IMG/VR virus record: IMGVR_UViG_2823670853_000002
Length of the DNA stretch: 64,000 nucleotides
Source: a virus
Lineage: Duplodnaviria > Heunggongvirae > Uroviricota > Caudoviricetes
Reading direction: 5' to 3' (one strand)
Below are positions 34,267 to 42,504 of this stretch, one piece after another. The stretch's first letter is position 1. Each line of letters begins with the position of its first letter. Below the pieces are notes generated by a model, which was not told the DNA's origin, searched no databases, and saw only the letters and a list, made by a program, of their open reading frames with translations. The translations under genes and the position numbers were made by a program.

Positions 34267-35037
34267 ATGCTGGAAAAAGACTACCAGTTATCCGCATATA
34301 AAAAATTGGCCGCAGCCGGTGGGATGAAAACACCTGGTGCCATAACATCAGCACGAAACAGTGCTAACACGGCAAAACAGCTTGCAGAAGAATTGACGGG
34401 ATTAATTCTGGATACAATTGTCTATCCCGACACTATTACCAGCTATGTTTCAACGATCAGAACAACCACAACCGGCTTAACGAACATTGGAGAACTGGCA
34501 ACTAAGCACGCGGACCTGTTGGCTGATTATGCAGATCTGTCAATGCTGCTTCAACTCGATATTGGTTGGGATGTTTACTGCCGTGCTAATGAGCGAGAAG
34601 TTTCAGAACTGCCGATCTCTATTGCCATTGGTGATGTGAATATTACTAAATCGCTTGAGGACGCTGTTAATGCGCTTAATACATCAAGTTTAGTCGCTGC
34701 TATGGGGGAGATTAACCAGACCCTTAACACTGGCTCAGGAAGCTCGTCAGGCTCTGGTTCAGGCGGCGGAACTGCCACTCCCCCACCAGCACTAACAGAA
34801 GAACAAATTGAATCTCTGAAAGTAGCAACTGAACAGTTTGGGGTTGTTTTCAACCAGACAACAGCGCCCACAACTGCGTTACAACAGCAGTATGAACGAG
34901 CGAATGAAAGCGCCAACGTAGCCATAACTGCTTATAACCATGCTATCGGTACCGCGCTTGCGGAAGCATCAGCAAAGAACCACGGCAGCCTGGCGGCTGC
35001 AAATCGTGGTGTGGCAGAATATGAGCTTTCAGAGTAA
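34267..35037 (+). CDS. Hypothetical protein with Gly/Ser-rich linker
   Basis: ~256 aa from MLEKDYQL; central SGSSSGSGSGGGTATPPP linker; function unknown. Confidence 0.4.
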   Translation: MLEKDYQLSAYKKLAAAGGMKTPGAITSARNSANTAKQLAEELTGLILDTIVYPDTITSYVSTIRTTTTGLTNIGELATKHADLLADYADLSMLLQLDIGWDVYCRANEREVSELPISIAIGDVNITKSLEDAVNALNTSSLVAAMGEINQTLNTGSGSSSGSGSGGGTATPPPALTEEQIESLKVATEQFGVVFNQTTAPTTALQQQYERANESANVAITAYNHAIGTALAEASAKNHGSLAAANRGVAEYELSE

Positions 35038-35056
35038 CCATCCAGAATGAGTTCCC

Positions 35057-35329
35057 ATGTCACACAACCTGGAGCACCAGAAAGTCCACACCAGAATGGT
35101 GAAAGAGGTTCTGAAAGCCGTCGCCAGGGCCAATAATCACCCTTATCAGTCTGTATTTACAGACTTTATCGCCGGTCATCCCTCCTGTACGGTCTGTTTC
35201 TGGGAAACCTTCCACAAAATGTACCCGGATTCACCGTACGAATACGTCACGTTCTGCCATACCTGCCGTCGTTTTGATTTATACGAAACTGAAGCGGAGA
35301 TGAAGGCGGATGACCCGAAGTGGTGGTGA
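35057..35329 (+). CDS. Small cysteine-rich ORF upstream of the transposase
   Basis: 90 aa with CTVC...CHTC motifs; overlaps transposase start by 20 nt in another frame; may be an IS91 orf121-like accessory ORF. Confidence 0.35.
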   Translation: MSHNLEHQKVHTRMVKEVLKAVARANNHPYQSVFTDFIAGHPSCTVCFWETFHKMYPDSPYEYVTFCHTCRRFDLYETEAEMKADDPKWW

Positions 35330-36518
35330 TTTTCAGCCCCGACCGCTGAAACGCCTGTTCACAGCCAACCAGTGCTGGACATCCTTCCTGGATGCGGGCG
35401 GCCTGCGCGATATCGAGGTTGAGGCTGTCACAAAAATGCTGGCCTGCGGCACGCGGATACTGGGTGTGAAGGAATACAACTGCGATAAACCTGAGTGCCC
35501 CCACGTCAGATACGTCACTAACTCATGTGGCAGCCGTGCCTGCCCGTCCTGCGGAAAAAAGGCCACAGACCTGTGGATAGCGACACAGCTGAATCGTCTT
35601 CCTGACTGCGACTGGGTGCACCTGGTCTTCACCCTGCCGGACACGCTGTGGCCGGTGTTCGAAAGCAACCGCTGGCTGCTGAATGACGTGTGCCGTCTGG
35701 CGGTGGAGAATCTGCTGTATGCAGCCCGGAAACGGGGTCTGGAACCCGGTATCTTCTGCGCCATCCATACGTATGGCCGTCGTCTCAACTGGCATCCGCA
35801 TGTGCATGTGTCAGTGACCTGCGGAGGTCTGAATAAACACGGACACTGGAAAAAGCTGAGCTTCCTGAAAGACGCGATGCGTTCGCGGTGGATGTGGAAT
35901 ATGCGGCAGCTGCTTCTGAAAGCGTGGTCAGAAGGTCTGGCGATGCCGGAATCGTTGTCACATATCACGACGGAATCACAGTGGAGAAGCCTGGTGCTGA
36001 AAGCCGGCGGAAAATACTGGCATGTGTACATGTCGAAGAAGACAGCCGGAGGGCGGAATACGGCACGCTACCTGGGTCGTTATCTGAAGAAGCCACCAAT
36101 AGCGGCTTCCCGGCTGGCGCATTACAACGGAGGAGCGAGTCTGAGCTTCCGTTACCTGGACCACAAAACGGGAGAAACGGCGACGGAAACGCTGACACAG
36201 CGGGAGCTGGTCGCGAGGCTGAAACAGCACATCCCGGAGAAGTTTTTTAAGATGGTGAGATACTTCGGGTTCCTTGCCAACCGGGTGTGTGGAGAGAAGC
36301 TGCCGCAGGTGTACCGTGCTCTGGGGATGGATAAGCCGGAACCAGTGGCGAAAGTGTGCTATGCACAAATGGTGAAACAGTTCCTGAGTCGTGACCCGTT
36401 CGAATGCGTGCTGTGTGGCGGCCGGATGGTATACCGCCGGGCCATTGCGGGGCTGAATGTATCAGGGCTGAAGAAAAACGCGCGGGATATCAGTCTGCTG
36501 AGGTATATGCCGGCCTGA
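35310..36518 (+). CDS. tnpA: IS91-family transposase (HUH, Y2 type)
   Basis: 402 aa; N-terminal zinc-binding CGSRACPSCGKK, HUH motif NWHPHVHVSV, tyrosine motif ARYLGRYLKKPP. Confidence 0.75.
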   Translation: MTRSGGDFQPRPLKRLFTANQCWTSFLDAGGLRDIEVEAVTKMLACGTRILGVKEYNCDKPECPHVRYVTNSCGSRACPSCGKKATDLWIATQLNRLPDCDWVHLVFTLPDTLWPVFESNRWLLNDVCRLAVENLLYAARKRGLEPGIFCAIHTYGRRLNWHPHVHVSVTCGGLNKHGHWKKLSFLKDAMRSRWMWNMRQLLLKAWSEGLAMPESLSHITTESQWRSLVLKAGGKYWHVYMSKKTAGGRNTARYLGRYLKKPPIAASRLAHYNGGASLSFRYLDHKTGETATETLTQRELVARLKQHIPEKFFKMVRYFGFLANRVCGEKLPQVYRALGMDKPEPVAKVCYAQMVKQFLSRDPFECVLCGGRMVYRRAIAGLNVSGLKKNARDISLLRYMPA

Positions 36519-36780
36519 CACAGGCTAAGTGTGCCCGGGAATCGGTGCAGGTATAAAAAACAGCCTGTTACGGTATAAAAATCGACCATGCAGAGAGAGA
36601 AACCACCGGAGTGGAGGGAAAAGCAGAAAGGCTCACGTGGCATAAGGCGTGGACAGCGGTATCGTCTGGTTTTTCAATTTCCTATACGTCAAGGCCAGCA
36701 CAGCCAGCGCAGTCGCCGCTTTGGTTCCTGATTCTGTTCTTGATGAATTAAACAAAGCGGCACAGTAACAAAGGACTTCA

Positions 36781-37842: not shown

Positions 37843-38058
37843 TTATCCACAGCATAGATCCAATAAACAGATCCTAAAGAGAACCTAGTAAGATCCAAAG
37901 AAGATCCCGGATCGCTGTAAGCCGCGTCATTTCTGGCCTGAAATGGGATCAACATTGACTATACGCGATTTTATGTTGACTGTGCACGATTTATTGTTGA
38001 CTGCACGCGATTTATTGTTGACTATACGCGACAGAAACATTGACTGTACGCGATTTTA
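37843..38058. other. oriR: Plasmid replication origin oriR: DnaA box, GATC cluster and five direct iterons
   Basis: DnaA box TTATCCACA (37843-37851); six GATC sites between 37857 and 37950; five ~21-bp direct repeats TTGACTrTrCrCGATTT (37956-38058). Confidence 0.6.
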
Positions 38059-38098
38059 GAGTCTGAATATTCACAGCTGTTGATAACAGCCATCCAAA

Positions 38099-39019
38099 TT
38101 GACGTCAGGCCGCGCCACACATGGAGAAACCACGATGCCGGAAGAAAGTAAAGGCTTCCTTAGCGTTGAAGAAGTTGCAGGAAATACAGGAGAAATCCAC
38201 AGCCTGAAGCCCAATAACAACAGCACTATACAACCCATCGCTTTGTTGCGTTTAGGTGTGTTTGTGCCAACCTTAAAATCTACCAATGTGGCGCTACGTC
38301 GCGGATCGTCAGTTACAACAAACACAACGAACGCAACTGAAGAACTATCAAGCCTCAAAATTGTTGAGCAGGAAGGCTATGAGGGAATTGAAATTCATGG
38401 TCCACGCCTGGATATGGATACTGATTTTAAGGTGTGGGTGGGCATAACCTCCGCGTTGTTTGACTATGCACCTGATGATGACGGTATAATCACCCTGCCA
38501 TTCTCCGAGTTTGCCGATCGATGCGGCTATCCACGTAAGCGCCTTTCAAAGGCGTTCCGTAAAAGTATTGATGACTCTCTGACACGCATTCAGCAGACAG
38601 TTGTCAAATTCCGCTTCCCGGCGGCAAAAGGTCATCTCAATAACATTAACGTCAACTTGTTGGCATATAGCAGCCTGAATACCGAGCTTGATGTTATCGA
38701 GATCCAGCCGCAGAAACAGCTATCTGAACTTTACTATGTTGACTATAAGCGAATCCTGAAGCTGAAGATGCTGGATAAACTAGGGCGCAAAGAGACGGCC
38801 AAGGTACTGTATACATTCTTTGAGGCTCTACCCGCCAACCCGGCACCTGTCAGCATTGAGCGCCTTAGGGCGAGGCTTAATCTCAAATCATCCGTTAGCG
38901 TGCAAAATAGCGTTATCAGAAAAGCCATGAAAGATTTAGAAGCTATTGAATATCTTAAATTTTCAGAGATAAAAAACGGCAGGAAAATCGGCTTCCAGAT
39001 CCATAAGCGCAATCCATAA
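38099..39019 (+). CDS. repA: Plasmid replication initiator RepA (P1 RepA family)
   Basis: 306 aa (294 if start at Met13, which has a GGAG RBS); conserved blocks IQPIALLRLGVFVP and GPRLDMDTDFKVW shared with P1 RepA; flanked by iterons. Confidence 0.8.
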   Translation: MTSGRATHGETTMPEESKGFLSVEEVAGNTGEIHSLKPNNNSTIQPIALLRLGVFVPTLKSTNVALRRGSSVTTNTTNATEELSSLKIVEQEGYEGIEIHGPRLDMDTDFKVWVGITSALFDYAPDDDGIITLPFSEFADRCGYPRKRLSKAFRKSIDDSLTRIQQTVVKFRFPAAKGHLNNINVNLLAYSSLNTELDVIEIQPQKQLSELYYVDYKRILKLKMLDKLGRKETAKVLYTFFEALPANPAPVSIERLRARLNLKSSVSVQNSVIRKAMKDLEAIEYLKFSEIKNGRKIGFQIHKRNP

Positions 39020-39020
39020 T

Positions 39021-39279
39021 ATTGACTATATGCGATAGCGAGAAGTTGACTATAGGCGACATTCGTTGACGCTGGTGGATTTTTGCTGGCGTCAATATTC
39101 TGCAAGTCTCTATTGAGATGGCTTTTAGGGCCATTTCATCGCGTATAGTCAACGTTTCTCCCGACAATATCTTACATAGTCGATCTTTGGTGGAGTTAAA
39201 TCGACTACAGTCAACTTTTGACTGTAGTCACATCGCGCATAGTCAACTATTCACATTAACCTTCGCGCATAGTCAACAT
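39021..39279. repeat. incA-like iteron cluster downstream of repA (copy-control locus)
   Basis: About eight copies of the TTGACTATrCGCG-type iteron in both orientations (e.g. 39021, 39046, 39140, 39200, 39235, 39265). Confidence 0.55.
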
Positions 39280-39311
39280 TTGCGCGGTTCTCATCAAGCA
39301 GTGGTATTGAT

Positions 39312-40121
39312 ATGCAAGAAGAAAAACAATACTACCTCTACGTTCTGGTGCCGGAGAACGGAGATACTTTTAAAATCGGCATTTCATGTGGTCCATTGGC
39401 ACGGTTTAAAGGGCTACAAGTGAGTCCCGATTTTGCGCTTTCACGGGTCTATCGTGGTACGCGTTTGGCAATGGTTAATCTTGAGCGAGCTTTACACGCA
39501 ACCTTTTTCCCCTGGAATGCGCCGTGGGAGAAAAGCGCCGGTGGCGGGCATACTGAATGGTTTACACGAGAGTGTCTTGATAAGGTTTTGGCTCATATCG
39601 AATATCTAAATGATATGTGGGGAGGGATTCTCGAGCGCATTAAGTCGAATGATTTACTTCAGCGTCCAGTAGATGCTGCTTGCTCTTTCGAAAAAGAGCT
39701 GGATGTTACTTCTATCGTGACTTTCAAAGATGACGCAGGAATGAGGGACGTGGCTTATGTCTCCATATCTGGCTATGAACCGGACGCGATCCGCGCTCAA
39801 TGTGAATTGCTGAAAGCAATGTTTATGCTTCGGACTAAATATCCCTGGGAGACAGGGCGGGTGTGCTTCCCTATGGAAGAGTTAACCGCCACCATTGATT
39901 CCCAGCTTTACCACGATAATCCAGAGAAGTTTTTTAGCCTTTTAGCCGGTAATGGGCTTAACTGTGTGTCCGGGCTGGGGCGAAGTAGAATCCAACATGC
40001 CTCGCTCTTCGGTCCCTTCTTTTACGATCGACACGGGTACTTTGAGGCTGAACTTCCGGCGCTTACGCGTGCTATAGATACTATCGATTTCGAACGATTA
40101 TTCGCTGCTCTTAGCAAATAA
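39312..40121 (+). CDS. T5orf172 (GIY-YIG-like) domain protein
   Basis: 269 aa; N-terminus YYLYVLVPENGDTFKIGIS...RFKGL...GGGHTEWF resembles the T5orf172/MUG113 signature; C-terminal ~170 aa unassigned; own terminator downstream. Confidence 0.5.
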   Translation: MQEEKQYYLYVLVPENGDTFKIGISCGPLARFKGLQVSPDFALSRVYRGTRLAMVNLERALHATFFPWNAPWEKSAGGGHTEWFTRECLDKVLAHIEYLNDMWGGILERIKSNDLLQRPVDAACSFEKELDVTSIVTFKDDAGMRDVAYVSISGYEPDAIRAQCELLKAMFMLRTKYPWETGRVCFPMEELTATIDSQLYHDNPEKFFSLLAGNGLNCVSGLGRSRIQHASLFGPFFYDRHGYFEAELPALTRAIDTIDFERLFAALSK

Positions 40122-40128
40122 CACTGAT

Positions 40129-40150
40129 GCCCCTGAACGGGGCTTTTTTG
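40129..40150 (+). terminator. Rho-independent terminator after the T5orf172 gene
   Basis: GCCCC-TGAAC-GGGGC hairpin followed by TTTTTT. Confidence 0.6.
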
Positions 40151-40289
40151 TGCCCTCCTTGTAACTCTCAATCGTGCAAAATGAACCAAACATGCAGAGA
40201 ATGCTATGTACAAGCATCTGTGCATACATTATTATTTTATGCAGCATTTTTAAGTAAATTCAAAAATACAGCATAAAGGATGACTTTCG

Positions 40290-41486
40290 ATGAGTGATTC
40301 CAGCCAGCTTCACAAGGTTGCTCAAAGAGCAAATAGAATGCTCAATGTTCTGACTGAACAAGTACAGTTGCAAAAGGATGAGCTACACGCGAACGAGTTT
40401 TACCAGGTCTATGCGAAAGCGGCACTGGCAAAATTGCCTCTACTGACTCGAGCGAACGTTGACTATGCCGTAAGTGAAATGGAAGAAAAGGGCTATGTTT
40501 TCGATAAACGCCCTGCTGGCTCTTCAATGAAATATGCGATGTCAATTCAGAACATCATTGACATATATGAACATCGCGGAGTGCCAAAATACCGGGATCG
40601 CTACAGCGAAGCGTATGTGATTTTCATCTCCAATCTTAAAGGCGGTGTGTCAAAAACTGTATCGACGGTTTCTCTGGCGCATGCAATGCGTGCCCACCCT
40701 CATCTTCTGATGGAAGATTTAAGGATTCTGGTTATTGACCTTGATCCGCAATCTTCAGCAACGATGTTTTTAAGCCATAAACACTCTATTGGTATCGTAA
40801 ACGCAACATCTGCACAGGCTATGTTGCAGAATGTAAGCCGTGAAGAGCTGTTAGAGGAGTTTATTGTTCCTTCTGTTGTACCTGGGGTTGACGTTATGCC
40901 TGCGTCGATTGACGATGCCTTTATTGCATCCGATTGGAGAGAGCTGTGCAATGAGCATCTACCGGGTCAGAACATCCATGCTGTCCTGAAAGAAAATGTG
41001 ATTGATAAGCTGAAGAGCGATTATGACTTTATCCTCGTTGATAGTGGTCCTCACCTTGACGCCTTCCTGAAAAATGCTTTGGCCTCGGCCAATATACTGT
41101 TTACACCTCTGCCGCCAGCAACTGTCGATTTCCACTCATCGCTTAAATACGTTGCCCGCCTTCCTGAGTTGGTGAAACTCATTTCGGATGAAGGCTGCGA
41201 GTGCCAGCTTGCGACTAACATTGGTTTTATGTCCAAGTTGAGTAACAAGGCAGATCATAAGTATTGCCATAGCTTGGCTAAAGAAGTGTTCGGTGGGGAT
41301 ATGCTCGATGTCGTCCTCCCTCGCCTTGACGGTTTTGAACGCTGCGGCGAGTCTTTTGACACTGTTATTTCAGCTAACCCGGCAACGTATGTTGGTAGTG
41401 CTGATGCATTGAAGAACGCGCGAATTGCTGCGGAAGATTTTGCTAAAGCAGTTTTTGACCGTATTGAATTTATCAGATCTAACTGA
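40290..41486 (+). CDS. parA: Partition ATPase ParA (type Ia)
   Basis: 398 aa; N-terminal HTH extension plus deviant Walker A (NLKGGVSKT); same length as P1 ParA; preceded by a palindromic operator-like region. Confidence 0.9.
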   Translation: MSDSSQLHKVAQRANRMLNVLTEQVQLQKDELHANEFYQVYAKAALAKLPLLTRANVDYAVSEMEEKGYVFDKRPAGSSMKYAMSIQNIIDIYEHRGVPKYRDRYSEAYVIFISNLKGGVSKTVSTVSLAHAMRAHPHLLMEDLRILVIDLDPQSSATMFLSHKHSIGIVNATSAQAMLQNVSREELLEEFIVPSVVPGVDVMPASIDDAFIASDWRELCNEHLPGQNIHAVLKENVIDKLKSDYDFILVDSGPHLDAFLKNALASANILFTPLPPATVDFHSSLKYVARLPELVKLISDEGCECQLATNIGFMSKLSNKADHKYCHSLAKEVFGGDMLDVVLPRLDGFERCGESFDTVISANPATYVGSADALKNARIAAEDFAKAVFDRIEFIRSN

Positions 41487-41502
41487 GGAGTAAGAAACCC
41501 CC

Positions 41503-42504
41503 ATGTCAAAGAAAAACAGACCAACAATTGGGCGAACCCTTAATCCTTCAATATTAAGCGGATTTGATAGTTCTTCAGCCTCTGGCGATCGAGTCGAGCA
41601 GGTATTCAAGTTATCAACTGGTCGCCAGGCCACATTTATTGAAGAGGTAATACCTCCGAACCAGGTAGAAAGCGATACCTTTGTTGATCAGCATAACAAC
41701 GGGCGTGACCAGGCATCTCTTACGCCAAAATCATTAAAAAGTATCCGAAGCACTATTAAGCATCAGCAATTTTACCCTGCAATAGGTGTTAGACGGGCTA
41801 CAGGGAAAATTGAAATTTTGGATGGTTCCCGGCGTCGAGCTTCTGCCATCTTAGAGAACGTAGGGTTGCGGGTTTTAGTCACGGACCAGGAGATCAGCGT
41901 TCAGGAAGCGCAAAATTTAGCGAAAGACGTTCAGACAGCATTGCAGCACAGCATTCGAGAAATAGGTCTGCGTTTGATGCGAATGAAAAATGATGGGATG
42001 AGTCAGAAGGATATTGCAGCCAAAGAAGGGCTGTCTCAGGCGAAGGTCACGCGTGCTCTCCAGGCAGCGAGTGCTCCGGAAGAATTAGTCGCCCTTTTCC
42101 CTGTGCAGTCGGAATTAACCTTTTCGGACTACAAAACACTTTGTGCTGTTGGCGACGAAATGGGGAACAAGAATTTAGAGTTTGATCAGCTTATTCAAAA
42201 CATATCCCCGGAAATAAACGACATCTTATCCATTGAAGAAATGGCCGAAGATGAAGTTAAAAATAAAATCCTGCGCTTGATAACAAAGGAAGCCTCACTA
42301 CTCACGGATAAAGGTTCTAAAGATAAGTCCGTAGTTACTGAATTATGGAAATTTGAGGACAAGGATCGCTTTGCAAGGAAGCGCGTGAAAGGCCGTGCAT
42401 TTTCTTATGAGTTTAATCGACTTTCAAAAGAGCTACAGGAAGAACTCGACAGGATGATTGGGCATATCCTTAGAAAGAGCCTCGATAAAAAGCCGAAGCC
42501 TTAA
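41503..42504 (+). CDS. parB: Partition protein ParB
   Basis: 333 aa; ParB/Spo0J-like centre; directly followed by a parS with P1-type A and B boxes. Confidence 0.9.
   Translation: MSKKNRPTIGRTLNPSILSGFDSSSASGDRVEQVFKLSTGRQATFIEEVIPPNQVESDTFVDQHNNGRDQASLTPKSLKSIRSTIKHQQFYPAIGVRRATGKIEILDGSRRRASAILENVGLRVLVTDQEISVQEAQNLAKDVQTALQHSIREIGLRLMRMKNDGMSQKDIAAKEGLSQAKVTRALQAASAPEELVALFPVQSELTFSDYKTLCAVGDEMGNKNLEFDQLIQNISPEINDILSIEEMAEDEVKNKILRLITKEASLLTDKGSKDKSVVTELWKFEDKDRFARKRVKGRAFSYEFNRLSKELQEELDRMIGHILRKSLDKKPKP

What the first reader, a model, noticed from the sequence alone, without database searches (positions are those of the whole stretch)
39300..40152. T5orf172-domain gene wedged between the incA iterons and the par operon
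The gene sits between the incA-like iteron cluster and the parA promoter, has its own terminator, and carries a GIY-YIG-like T5orf172 N-terminal domain fused to an uncharacterised ~170-aa C-terminal domain. As far as I recall, P1 has no gene between incA and parA. A nuclease-like single gene at a plasmid-maintenance junction is a plausible stand-alone defence, exclusion or homing-type cargo.
Basis: partly seen in the sequence, partly recalled or inferred. Interest (0 to 1): 0.7.

Follow-up and report, generated by a model that had tools for sequence, protein, structure and literature searches.

The report
Nuclease gene riding a swappable replicon cassette
A P1-like phage-plasmid carries a small nuclease-type gene at the edge of the DNA block that sets its plasmid replication type; the gene is already catalogued in hundreds of relatives as a hypothetical protein, evolves far faster than its neighbours, is often broken, and most likely is a selfish or rival-cutting endonuclease rather than part of plasmid maintenance.

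Summary
A 269-aa ORF lies at 39312..40121 (+). Its N-terminus passes Pfam's threshold for T5orf172 (GIY-YIG superfamily). It starts 30 bp after a RepA iteron cluster, ends before a terminator at 40129-40152, and sits upstream of the P1 par promoter. P1 has no gene there.

It is not a simple insertion. The block 37938-40187 (origin iterons, repA, control iterons, this gene, terminator) replaces P1's 1.5-kb IncY block. This is the known 'p0111' replicon of RCS47/SJ46/JL22-type phage-plasmids. The gene occurs in about 400 PLSDB plasmids and 12 phage records, annotated 'GIY-YIG nuclease family protein'.

New findings:
- Among 1.8 billion representative proteins there are only four deep alleles (44%, 28% and 30% identity to the window protein). 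All sit at this same spot in P1-like elements, next to three different RepA/iteron types.
- The catalytic-type residues are kept in all four.
- The gene shows 28 synonymous versus 35 amino-acid-changing variable codons, against 112:4 in repA plus parA.
- At least seven independent inactivations were seen.

Best reading: a homing- or exclusion-type site-specific nuclease. Activity and target are untested.

The parts
37938..38134 (+). Left end of the alternative replicon cassette: five origin iterons (37953-38053, 21-bp spacing) with the repA promoter region. P1 homology ends at 37937, inside oriR just before P1's incC iterons.
38135..39019 (+). repA, a p0111-type Rep3-family initiator. It is 42% identical to P1 RepA. 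The start follows the RefSeq annotation of identical genes; the ORF is open from 38099. One iteron-like copy lies inside the gene at 38737-38752.
39020..39281 (.). Control (incA-like) iteron cluster: copies at 39020 and 39044 are forward; copies at 39139, 39201, 39233 and 39263 are inverted.
39312..40121 (+). T5orf172-domain gene, 269 aa. The N-terminal nuclease-type domain is aa 1-103 (39312-39620). A low-confidence linker covers aa ~111-126. The C-terminal alpha/beta winged-helix-like domain is aa ~128-268.
40129..40152 (+). Intrinsic-terminator-like hairpin (GCCCC-TGAAC-GGGGC) followed by a T-run. A homologous hairpin follows the allele in L007.
40188..40289 (+). Right junction of the cassette (40187/40188), then the P1-identical par promoter/operator. 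Ppar hexamers lie at 40207-40235.
40290..42504 (+). parA (40290-41486) and parB (41503-42504). They are 99.7% and 100% identical to P1 ParA and ParB. They are conserved flanks, not part of the cassette.

Best explanation
The gene encodes a free-standing, two-domain, site-specific DNA endonuclease of the T5orf172 branch of the GIY-YIG superfamily. The N-terminal domain is the nuclease. The fast-evolving C-terminal domain is winged-helix-like and probably binds DNA.

The gene is not part of plasmid replication or partition. It rides at the right-hand edge of the exchangeable replicon-specificity cassette of P1-like phage-plasmids (origin iterons, repA, control iterons, nuclease gene, terminator). 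It is probably transcribed at a low level by read-through from the RepA-autoregulated repA promoter.

Inferred mechanism: when two P1-like elements meet in one cell, the enzyme cuts the relative that lacks it or carries another allele. The broken element is then either repaired from the nuclease-bearing element or lost. Repair would copy in the gene together with the adjacent, non-homologous replicon cassette, bounded by the conserved oriR and Ppar flanks; this is homing with co-conversion. Loss would be exclusion.

What is shown: domain membership, conserved catalytic-type residues, the conserved locus, the cassette borders, relaxed constraint, and dispensability. What is inferred: nuclease activity, the target, and the homing or exclusion outcome.
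For: 1. Domain. The Pfam T5orf172 match is above threshold. The GIY-like Tyr10, K21-x-G23, Arg31, E58, H62 and Glu82 (in TEWF) are invariant in all four deep alleles and in four remote T5orf172 proteins. None is hit by the population polymorphisms.

2. Locus. HMMER against 1.84 billion representatives finds full-length relatives only as four alleles. Every one sits between the control iterons and parA of a P1-like element, with its ATG 20-30 bp after the last iteron. The neighbouring RepA/iteron systems are of three different types.

3. Cassette borders. Window versus P1: homology breaks at 37937 and resumes at 40188, 67 bp after the stop codon. An independent pair, L005 versus L004, has 94-98.6% identical backbones but unrelated cassettes. 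Its borders fall in the same places, 63-84 bp after the nuclease stop. This matches the published pattern of T5orf172 homing-endonuclease genes sitting at boundaries of genetic exchange next to essential genes (PMC10448857).

4. Tempo. Window versus L004: RepA 84% and ParA 89% identical, but the nuclease 44% (N-domain 64%, C-domain 32%). Within the window-type allele, variable codons split synonymous:amino-acid-changing as 28:35. The figures are 44:3 for repA and 68:1 for parA (41 cassettes, Fisher p about 1e-15). A separate PLSDB sample gives 13:20 versus 49:2. pN/pS is 0.37, against 0.02 for repA and 0.00 for parA.

5. Dispensability. There are at least seven independent inactivations: stops at codons 36, 68, 112 and 228, a 2-bp deletion, a frameshift, and an IS200/IS605 insertion. 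All are in otherwise intact elements, including phage SJ46.

6. Independent mobility. The L005 and L007 alleles share 62% N-domain identity and a 231-bp stretch at 76% DNA identity, although their RepAs are only 43% identical.

Against: - No biochemical or genetic data exist. Cleavage, target and homing are all inferred.
- The gene accompanies the p0111 cassette in every complete record I sampled, with no clean deletion variant. A classic homing gene would show a more sporadic pattern, and simple linkage to a successful replicon would give the same picture.
- The cassette swap could arise by ordinary recombination between the conserved flanks, without any nuclease.
- The fold evidence for a DNA-binding C-domain is weak. 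Foldseek E-values are 0.09 or worse and TM-scores 0.35-0.41. There is no sequence-level similarity to Rep proteins (hhalign probability 0.2). The model rests on only four sequences.
- Foldseek of the full model did not return solved GIY-YIG nucleases.
- No promoter-like site of its own was found, and the Shine-Dalgarno sequence is weak.
- The high rate of amino-acid change and breakage is also what a decaying passenger gene would show.
Confidence: 0.5

Rival explanations
1. Stand-alone anti-phage defence gene carried as prophage/plasmid cargo. The nuclease would cut the DNA of unrelated infecting phages.
For: It has a nuclease-type domain and evolves fast. One remote T5orf172 relative (P0013) sits in a chromosomal island next to Mrr- and WYL-domain genes. 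T5orf172 nuclease domains occur in some described defence proteins (my own knowledge, not tested here).
Against: There is no match to any of 5027 PADLOC models. The full-length family is confined to one fixed position in P1-like elements rather than spread over defence islands. About one fifth of copies are broken.
Confidence: 0.13
2. Domesticated, replicon-associated DNA-binding or RepA-binding factor. It would use a WH1-like domain to sit on the control iterons or to pair with RepA, and so tune copy number, handcuffing or par-promoter insulation. The precedent is CapR, a T5orf172 homing-gene relative turned repressor.
For: In all four cassette types the ATG lies 20-30 bp after the last control iteron. 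No terminator-like or promoter-like site was found on this strand between repA and the gene, so co-transcription with repA is likely. The C-domain's best structural matches are Rep WH1 domains, which both dimerise and bind iteron half-sites. The CapR precedent is in PMC10448857.
Against: - P1 and about 160 related PLSDB plasmids carry a different (non-p0111) cassette; in P1 that cassette has no such gene.
- At least seven independent knock-outs persist in otherwise intact elements.
- The window and L004 share the same iteron family and 84% RepA identity, yet their C-domains are only 32% identical.
- The catalytic-type residues are conserved, which a pure binder would not need.
Confidence: 0.12
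3. A functionless passenger. It would be an old nuclease gene that hitch-hikes with a successful replicon cassette and is drifting toward loss, as has already happened in the P1/IncY lineage.
For: Amino-acid-changing variation is at least as common as synonymous variation. There are 24 distinct proteins in 41 cassettes, and 7 of 41 carry premature stops. No remnant of the gene is left in P1's spacer.
Against: Four alleles, diverged to about 28-44% identity, all keep a full-length ORF, the two-domain layout and the catalytic-type residues. pN/pS of 0.37 overall (0.21 in the N-domain) is still below neutrality. Most copies are intact.
Confidence: 0.15

Closest known systems
Free-standing T5orf172-family homing endonuclease genes of phages (ICP1 gp53/gp121/gp130 type; Barth, Dunham and Seed 2023, PMC10448857)
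   Same: The nuclease domain is the same Pfam family. The protein has nuclease-plus-second-domain architecture. It is a free-standing intergenic gene next to essential genes. It lies exactly at a boundary of genetic exchange between related elements. Its presumed specificity domain evolves fast and appears modular.
   Different: Most of those genes carry Zn-finger DNA-binding modules (CapR, DUF723, DUF4397). Here there is no such Pfam match, and only one Cys is invariant. The host is the plasmid-maintenance region of a temperate phage-plasmid rather than a lytic phage. The gene is nearly fixed within one cassette type. Homing has not been shown.
Odn (ICP1 Gp88), the origin-directed nuclease (Barth et al. 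2021, PMC8263062)
   Same: It is a T5orf172 nuclease joined to a domain related to a replication initiator's DNA-binding domain. It takes part in a conflict in which replicon modules (initiator plus iterons) are swapped as units.
T4 Seg proteins and I-TevI (GIY-YIG homing endonucleases; my own knowledge)
   Same: They belong to the GIY-YIG superfamily, consist of a nuclease plus a linker plus a DNA-binding domain, are free-standing between genes, and co-convert flanking markers.
   Different: They are a different GIY-YIG subfamily with different binding domains. They act during lytic co-infection. There is no replicon linkage.
The 'p0111' replicon of RCS47/SJ46/JL22-type P1-like phage-plasmids (PMC9603915, PMC5241659)
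   Same: The window carries exactly this replicon. The region is 98.7-99.2% identical over 4.6 kb, including this gene.
   Different: The literature treats the gene only as an unknown ORF ('gp57') that comes with repA'. No function, allele series or selection analysis has been reported in the papers I could search.

Membership tests
T5orf172 domain family (Pfam PF10544, GIY-YIG superfamily) | Profile match above the curated gathering score | tested here: met
   27.4 bits against a cut-off of 20, E 5.1e-6, aa 8-85. The related MUG113 profile scores below its threshold.
T5orf172 domain family (Pfam PF10544, GIY-YIG superfamily) | Conserved GIY-like Tyr, catalytic Arg in the first helix, and catalytic Glu | tested here: met
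   Y10, R31 and E82 (plus K21, G23, E58, H62) are invariant across the four alleles and four remote homologs. Their catalytic roles are assigned by analogy with the Odn alignment in PMC8263062.
T5orf172 domain family (Pfam PF10544, GIY-YIG superfamily) | GIY-YIG alpha/beta fold | tested here: inconclusive
   The model has the expected strand-strand-helix order. However, Foldseek against the PDB returned no GIY-YIG nuclease, and a profile search of PDB sequences gave only a UPF0213 protein (1ywl_A; a GIY-YIG-type family by my own knowledge) at E 0.24.
T5orf172 domain family (Pfam PF10544, GIY-YIG superfamily) | Endonuclease activity | not testable with these tools
   Needs purified protein and an E82A control.
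Free-standing homing endonuclease gene | Presence/absence or allele polymorphism at one fixed site among close relatives | tested here: met
   The gene is absent in P1 and present in the window and its relatives. Four alleles occupy the same site.
Free-standing homing endonuclease gene | Sits at a recombination boundary next to essential genes | tested here: met
   The right-hand cassette junction lies 63-84 bp after the stop codon in two independent backbone pairs.
Free-standing homing endonuclease gene | Phylogeny discordant with flanking genes (independent mobility) | tested here: inconclusive
   The L005/L007 N-domains are 62% identical against 43% for their RepAs, with a 231-bp stretch at 76% DNA identity. 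There are only four alleles, so no robust tree is possible.
Free-standing homing endonuclease gene | Cleaves the gene-less allele and is copied into it with co-conversion of flanks | not testable with these tools
   Needs in vitro cleavage and co-residence crosses.
T5orf172 homing genes with Zn-finger binding modules (CapR/DUF723/DUF4397) | CxxC-type Zn-finger DNA-binding domain | tested here: not met
   There is no Pfam hit on the C-domain of any allele. Only C88 is invariant.
Odn-like origin-directed nuclease | Binding domain homologous in sequence to a replication initiator's DNA-binding domain | tested here: not met
Odn-like origin-directed nuclease | Iteron-dependent cleavage of a rival origin | not testable with these tools
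   Needs nuclease assays on IncY and p0111 iteron DNA.
Known anti-phage defence systems (PADLOC-DB 2.0) | Match to a defence-protein model | tested here: not met
   0 families at E up to 1.

The most novel reading that the evidence does not exclude
The protein could be a weapon against rival replicons, comparable to ICP1's Odn. Its Rep-WH1-like C-terminal domain would recognise the iterons of a competing P1-like phage-plasmid, or dock onto that plasmid's RepA. The T5orf172 domain would then cut the rival's replicon. That would eliminate the rival or convert it to the attacker's cassette. Such competitors share the same parABS system and so cannot coexist stably. On this reading, the nuclease would drive both the diversification of RepA/iteron types in P1-like elements and the turnover between IncY and p0111.
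Probability: 0.15. Interest if true: 0.8.

Novelty: new member of a known kind. Interest (0 to 1): 0.45.

Why it matters
P1-like phage-plasmids are common carriers of ESBL and other resistance genes. They fall into two replicon types, IncY and p0111, which are used for typing. If the nuclease gene at the cassette edge promotes replacement or exclusion of the other type, that would explain how the replicon block is exchanged as a unit between otherwise near-identical elements, and why the gene-bearing type is so frequent. It would also extend the 'nuclease genes mark boundaries of exchange' pattern from lytic phages to plasmid-maintenance modules. The experiment is simple: one small gene, an obvious catalytic mutant, and ready-made P1 genetics. 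If it is only a decaying passenger, the finding is routine comparative annotation.

Tried and rejected
- Simple insertion into P1: rejected. The whole block 37938-40187 is non-homologous to P1.
- Remnant of the gene in P1's incA-Ppar spacer: none found (tblastn, all E above 0.4).
- Known defence family: no PADLOC hit. NCBIfam gives none. PHROGs gives only its own unknown-function family, plus a weak 'endonuclease' hit to the N-domain.
- Sequence homology of the C-domain to RepA, Pfam or PDB sequences: none.
- Foldseek on the C-domain model alone: not significant. The Rep WH1 entry 6h24 ranks second among noise. The AFDB library was unavailable.
- General link between T5orf172 proteins of this size and plasmid replicons: rejected. 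Three remote homologs lie in unrelated contexts.
- Search for the other alleles in curated phage and plasmid collections: P0009-type is absent from both. All 44 IMG/VR loci carry the window-type allele.
- Own sigma-70 promoter: none found between the iterons and the ATG.
- Compositional foreignness: none. The gene is 47.4% GC against 47.7% for the window.
- Essential maintenance role: rejected, because of recurrent knock-outs in otherwise intact elements.

Full report
**What is there**

The window carries an ORF at 39312..40121 on the + strand, 269 aa. Its first ~100 residues match Pfam T5orf172 (PF10544), a branch of the GIY-YIG nuclease superfamily. The match covers aa 8-85 at 27.4 bits against a curated cut-off of 20, with E 5.1e-6. 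The remaining ~165 residues match nothing in Pfam, NCBIfam or PADLOC. In PHROGs the protein falls in its own family of unknown function, phrog_2876, with a weak N-terminal hit to an 'endonuclease' family.

Upstream is repA, a Rep3-type initiator, flanked by a 16-nt iteron with consensus TGTTGACTATACGCGA:
- five copies at 21-bp spacing upstream of repA (37953-38053);
- one copy inside repA;
- a downstream cluster with two forward copies (39020, 39044) and four inverted copies (39139-39281).

The ATG lies 30 bp after the last iteron. A GC hairpin plus T-run follows the stop codon at 40129-40152. The P1 par promoter, parA and parB come next.

**Relation to P1**

The annotated P1 reference has no CDS between incA and Ppar. 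However, the window is not P1 plus an insertion. Homology to P1 runs up to 37937 at 95% identity. That point is inside oriR, after the DnaA box and Dam sites and just before P1's incC iterons. Homology resumes at 40188 at 99% identity, 19 bp upstream of the Ppar -35 hexamer.

Between these points, 2250 bp replace 1491 bp of P1. The window's RepA is only 42% identical to P1 RepA. So a whole replicon-specificity cassette has been exchanged: origin iterons, repA, control iterons, the T5orf172 gene and its terminator. The gene is the last element on the right. P1's own spacer holds no remnant of such a gene.

**It is already known as a sequence**

The same 4.6-kb region, gene included, is 98.7-99.2% identical in phages RCS47, SJ46, JL22, phi456 and others. 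There the gene is annotated 'GIY-YIG nuclease family protein', 'T5orf172 domain-containing protein' or 'hypothetical protein'.

- In PLSDB, 401 plasmids encode it at 90% identity or more. Nearly all are from Escherichia or Salmonella and about 90-100 kb long.
- Of 548 plasmids sharing this parA, 387 carry the full cassette. The rest match only from position 40188 onward, so they carry another cassette.
- The literature calls this replicon 'p0111', as opposed to P1's IncY. It mentions the gene only as an unknown ORF, 'gp57', that comes in with repA' (PMC9603915). See also '2 orfs inserted between repA and parA' (PMC6906374) and the 42% RepA identity (PMC5241659).
- I found no paper that links T5orf172 with P1-like elements.

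**A fixed locus with four deep alleles**

A word-indexed search found one distant relative (44% identity). A full HMMER scan of 1.84 billion representative proteins added two more. Global pairwise identity of the three to the window protein is 44%, 28% and 30%. Everything else matched only the N-terminal domain.

All four alleles lie at the same place in P1-like contigs, between the control iterons and parA. In each case the ATG is 20-30 bp after the last inverted iteron. The neighbouring replicons differ:
- The window and L004 share one iteron family, with RepA 84% identical.
- L005/L006 have P1-type iterons and a RepA 83% identical to P1's.
- L007 has a third iteron type.

L005 and L004 have almost the same backbone, 94-98.6% DNA identity on both sides, with ParA 99.7% identical. 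Yet their cassettes are unrelated, and the borders fall where they fall in the window/P1 pair: at the first origin iteron on the left, and 63-84 bp past the nuclease stop codon on the right. The cassette, nuclease gene included, has therefore been swapped as a unit at least twice, in two different backbones.

The L005 and L007 alleles are closer to each other than their RepAs are. Their N-domains are 62% identical and they share 231 bp at 76% DNA identity, against 43% for RepA. This hints that the gene, or its N-domain, also moves between cassette types.

**Tempo and dispensability**

At depth, the nuclease is 44% identical between the window and L004 (N-domain 64%, C-domain 32%). The adjacent RepA and ParA are 84% and 89% identical.

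Within the window-type allele I took two independent samples.

| Sample | T5orf172 syn : aa-changing codons | Flanks syn : aa-changing | Fisher p | Source |
|---|---|---|---|---|
| 10 cassettes (PLSDB, RCS47, window) | 13:20 | repA 32:2, parA 5' part 17:0 | 8e-9 | |
| 41 cassettes (window + 40 IMG/VR) | 28:35 | repA 44:3, parA 68:1 | about 1e-15 | |

- In the first sample, pN/pS is 0.37 for the gene (N-domain 0.21, C-domain 0.59), against 0.02 for repA and 0.00 for parA.
- Leaving out the broken copies does not change the result in either sample (Fisher p = 3e-6; 3e-16).
- In the second sample there are 24 distinct nuclease proteins, against 5 RepA and 3 ParA.

Inactivating lesions are frequent and independent:
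- stops at codons 36, 68, 112 (five loci) and 228 (the SJ46 lineage);
- a 2-bp deletion;
- a frameshift in phage 673R5;
- an IS200/IS605-family insertion.

The gene is thus dispensable for maintaining the element and only weakly constrained. That rules out a core replication or partition role. Over the long term, however, all four alleles keep an intact two-domain ORF. They also keep Y10, K21, G23, R31, E58, H62 and E82, the GIY-YIG-type catalytic set, which is shared with remote T5orf172 proteins. No population polymorphism touches these residues.

**The C-terminal domain**

AlphaFold models built from the four alleles are of moderate confidence. The full-length model has pLDDT 72. The C-domain alone has pLDDT 75 and pTM 0.74. 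The C-domain has a strand-helix-helix-helix-strand-strand core typical of winged helices.

RctB, ORC/Cdc6 and MarR-type winged helices are among the weaker matches further down the list. Foldseek with the independent full-length model also puts Rep WH1 and RepE on top, but at E 0.09-2. With the C-domain model alone, Foldseek gives nothing significant. Profile comparison with the RepA alignment finds no sequence similarity.

I take 'winged-helix, probably DNA-binding' as likely. 'Rep-WH1-like' is a lead, not a result.

**Interpretation**

The closest described things are the free-standing T5orf172 homing-endonuclease genes of ICP1-like and T5-like phages. These sit next to essential genes, mark the borders of recombination tracts, and have modular, fast-changing binding domains (PMC10448857). 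Also close is Odn, a T5orf172 nuclease fused to a copy of a satellite's initiator DNA-binding domain. Odn cuts that satellite's origin, and the satellite escapes by swapping its replicon module (PMC8263062).

The present gene shares the domain, the architecture, the boundary position, the allele turnover and the replicon-swap context. It differs in three ways. It lacks the usual Zn-finger modules. It lies inside a plasmid-maintenance cassette of a temperate phage-plasmid. It is nearly fixed within one cassette type.

I therefore favour a site-specific nuclease that acts on related co-resident elements, by homing with co-conversion of the cassette or by exclusion (confidence 0.5). The rivals are:
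- an anti-phage defence gene (0.13; no PADLOC hit, fixed locus);
- a domesticated factor that tunes the replicon (0.12; argued against by the knock-outs and by P1 lacking it);
- a decaying passenger (0.15; argued against by the deep conservation of ORF, architecture and catalytic residues).

Transcription by read-through from the repA promoter is inferred. The scan found no promoter-like or terminator-like site on this strand between repA and the gene, and a terminator-like hairpin directly after it.

**Verdict**

The gene itself is already catalogued and widespread, so it is a new member of a known kind rather than a new kind of system. The replicon-cassette context, the four-allele series and the selection pattern appear in none of the papers I could search, and they point to a cheap, decisive experiment. 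Interest 0.45. The Odn-like reading, a nuclease aimed at rival replicons (probability about 0.15), would merit about 0.8.

Noticed in passing
window 34980-36690: An IS91-family element is a clean 1711-bp insertion relative to both P1 and RCS47. Its 402-aa transposase ORF (35310..36518) has Y2_Tnp and Zn_Tnp_IS91 domains. It interrupts the end of the upfB homolog, about 1.2 kb upstream of the replicon cassette.
   Followed up: yes
window 38737-38752; L004 7609-7630: An iteron copy (94% match to the reference iteron) lies inside the repA coding sequence. It is at the same relative position in the 84%-identical repA of L004. It may be a conserved internal RepA-binding site.
   Followed up: partly
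L059 2794-4558 (IMG/VR contig); PLSDB hit H121; protein P0005: Three rearrangements fall in or beside the inter-domain linker of the nuclease gene, at about aa 98-105. One is an IS200/IS605-family insertion (TnpB-like 389 aa plus Y1 transposase 141 aa) with a deletion. One is a truncation at window position ~39607. One is a fusion ORF. Whether this is a single ancestral event or a preferred breakpoint is unknown.
   Followed up: partly
PLSDB records behind L008-L015: The MOB-suite typing shown by PLSDB labels these P1-like plasmids as replicon 'IncHI1B', while the literature and PlasmidFinder call this replicon p0111. This looks like a typing artefact.
   Followed up: no
window 40290-42504 versus P1 and RCS47: [quoted passage not shown] Here the window's ParA and ParB are 99.7% and 100% identical to P1's, and the same DNA is 98.7% identical to RCS47. 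So the par system of these elements looks P1-type.
   Followed up: no
L007 6140-8307: The element carrying the fourth allele has a different partition system (ParA 57% and ParB 44% identical to the window's) as well as a third RepA/iteron type. Even so, the terminator and about 50 bp after its nuclease gene resemble those in the window.
   Followed up: no
L016 (CP168302.1, 808398-819273): A remote N-domain homolog (P0013, 291 aa) lies in a chromosomal island next to genes with Mrr_cat, WYL/WCX and Hypoth_Ymh domains. That neighbourhood looks like a defence island.
   Followed up: no
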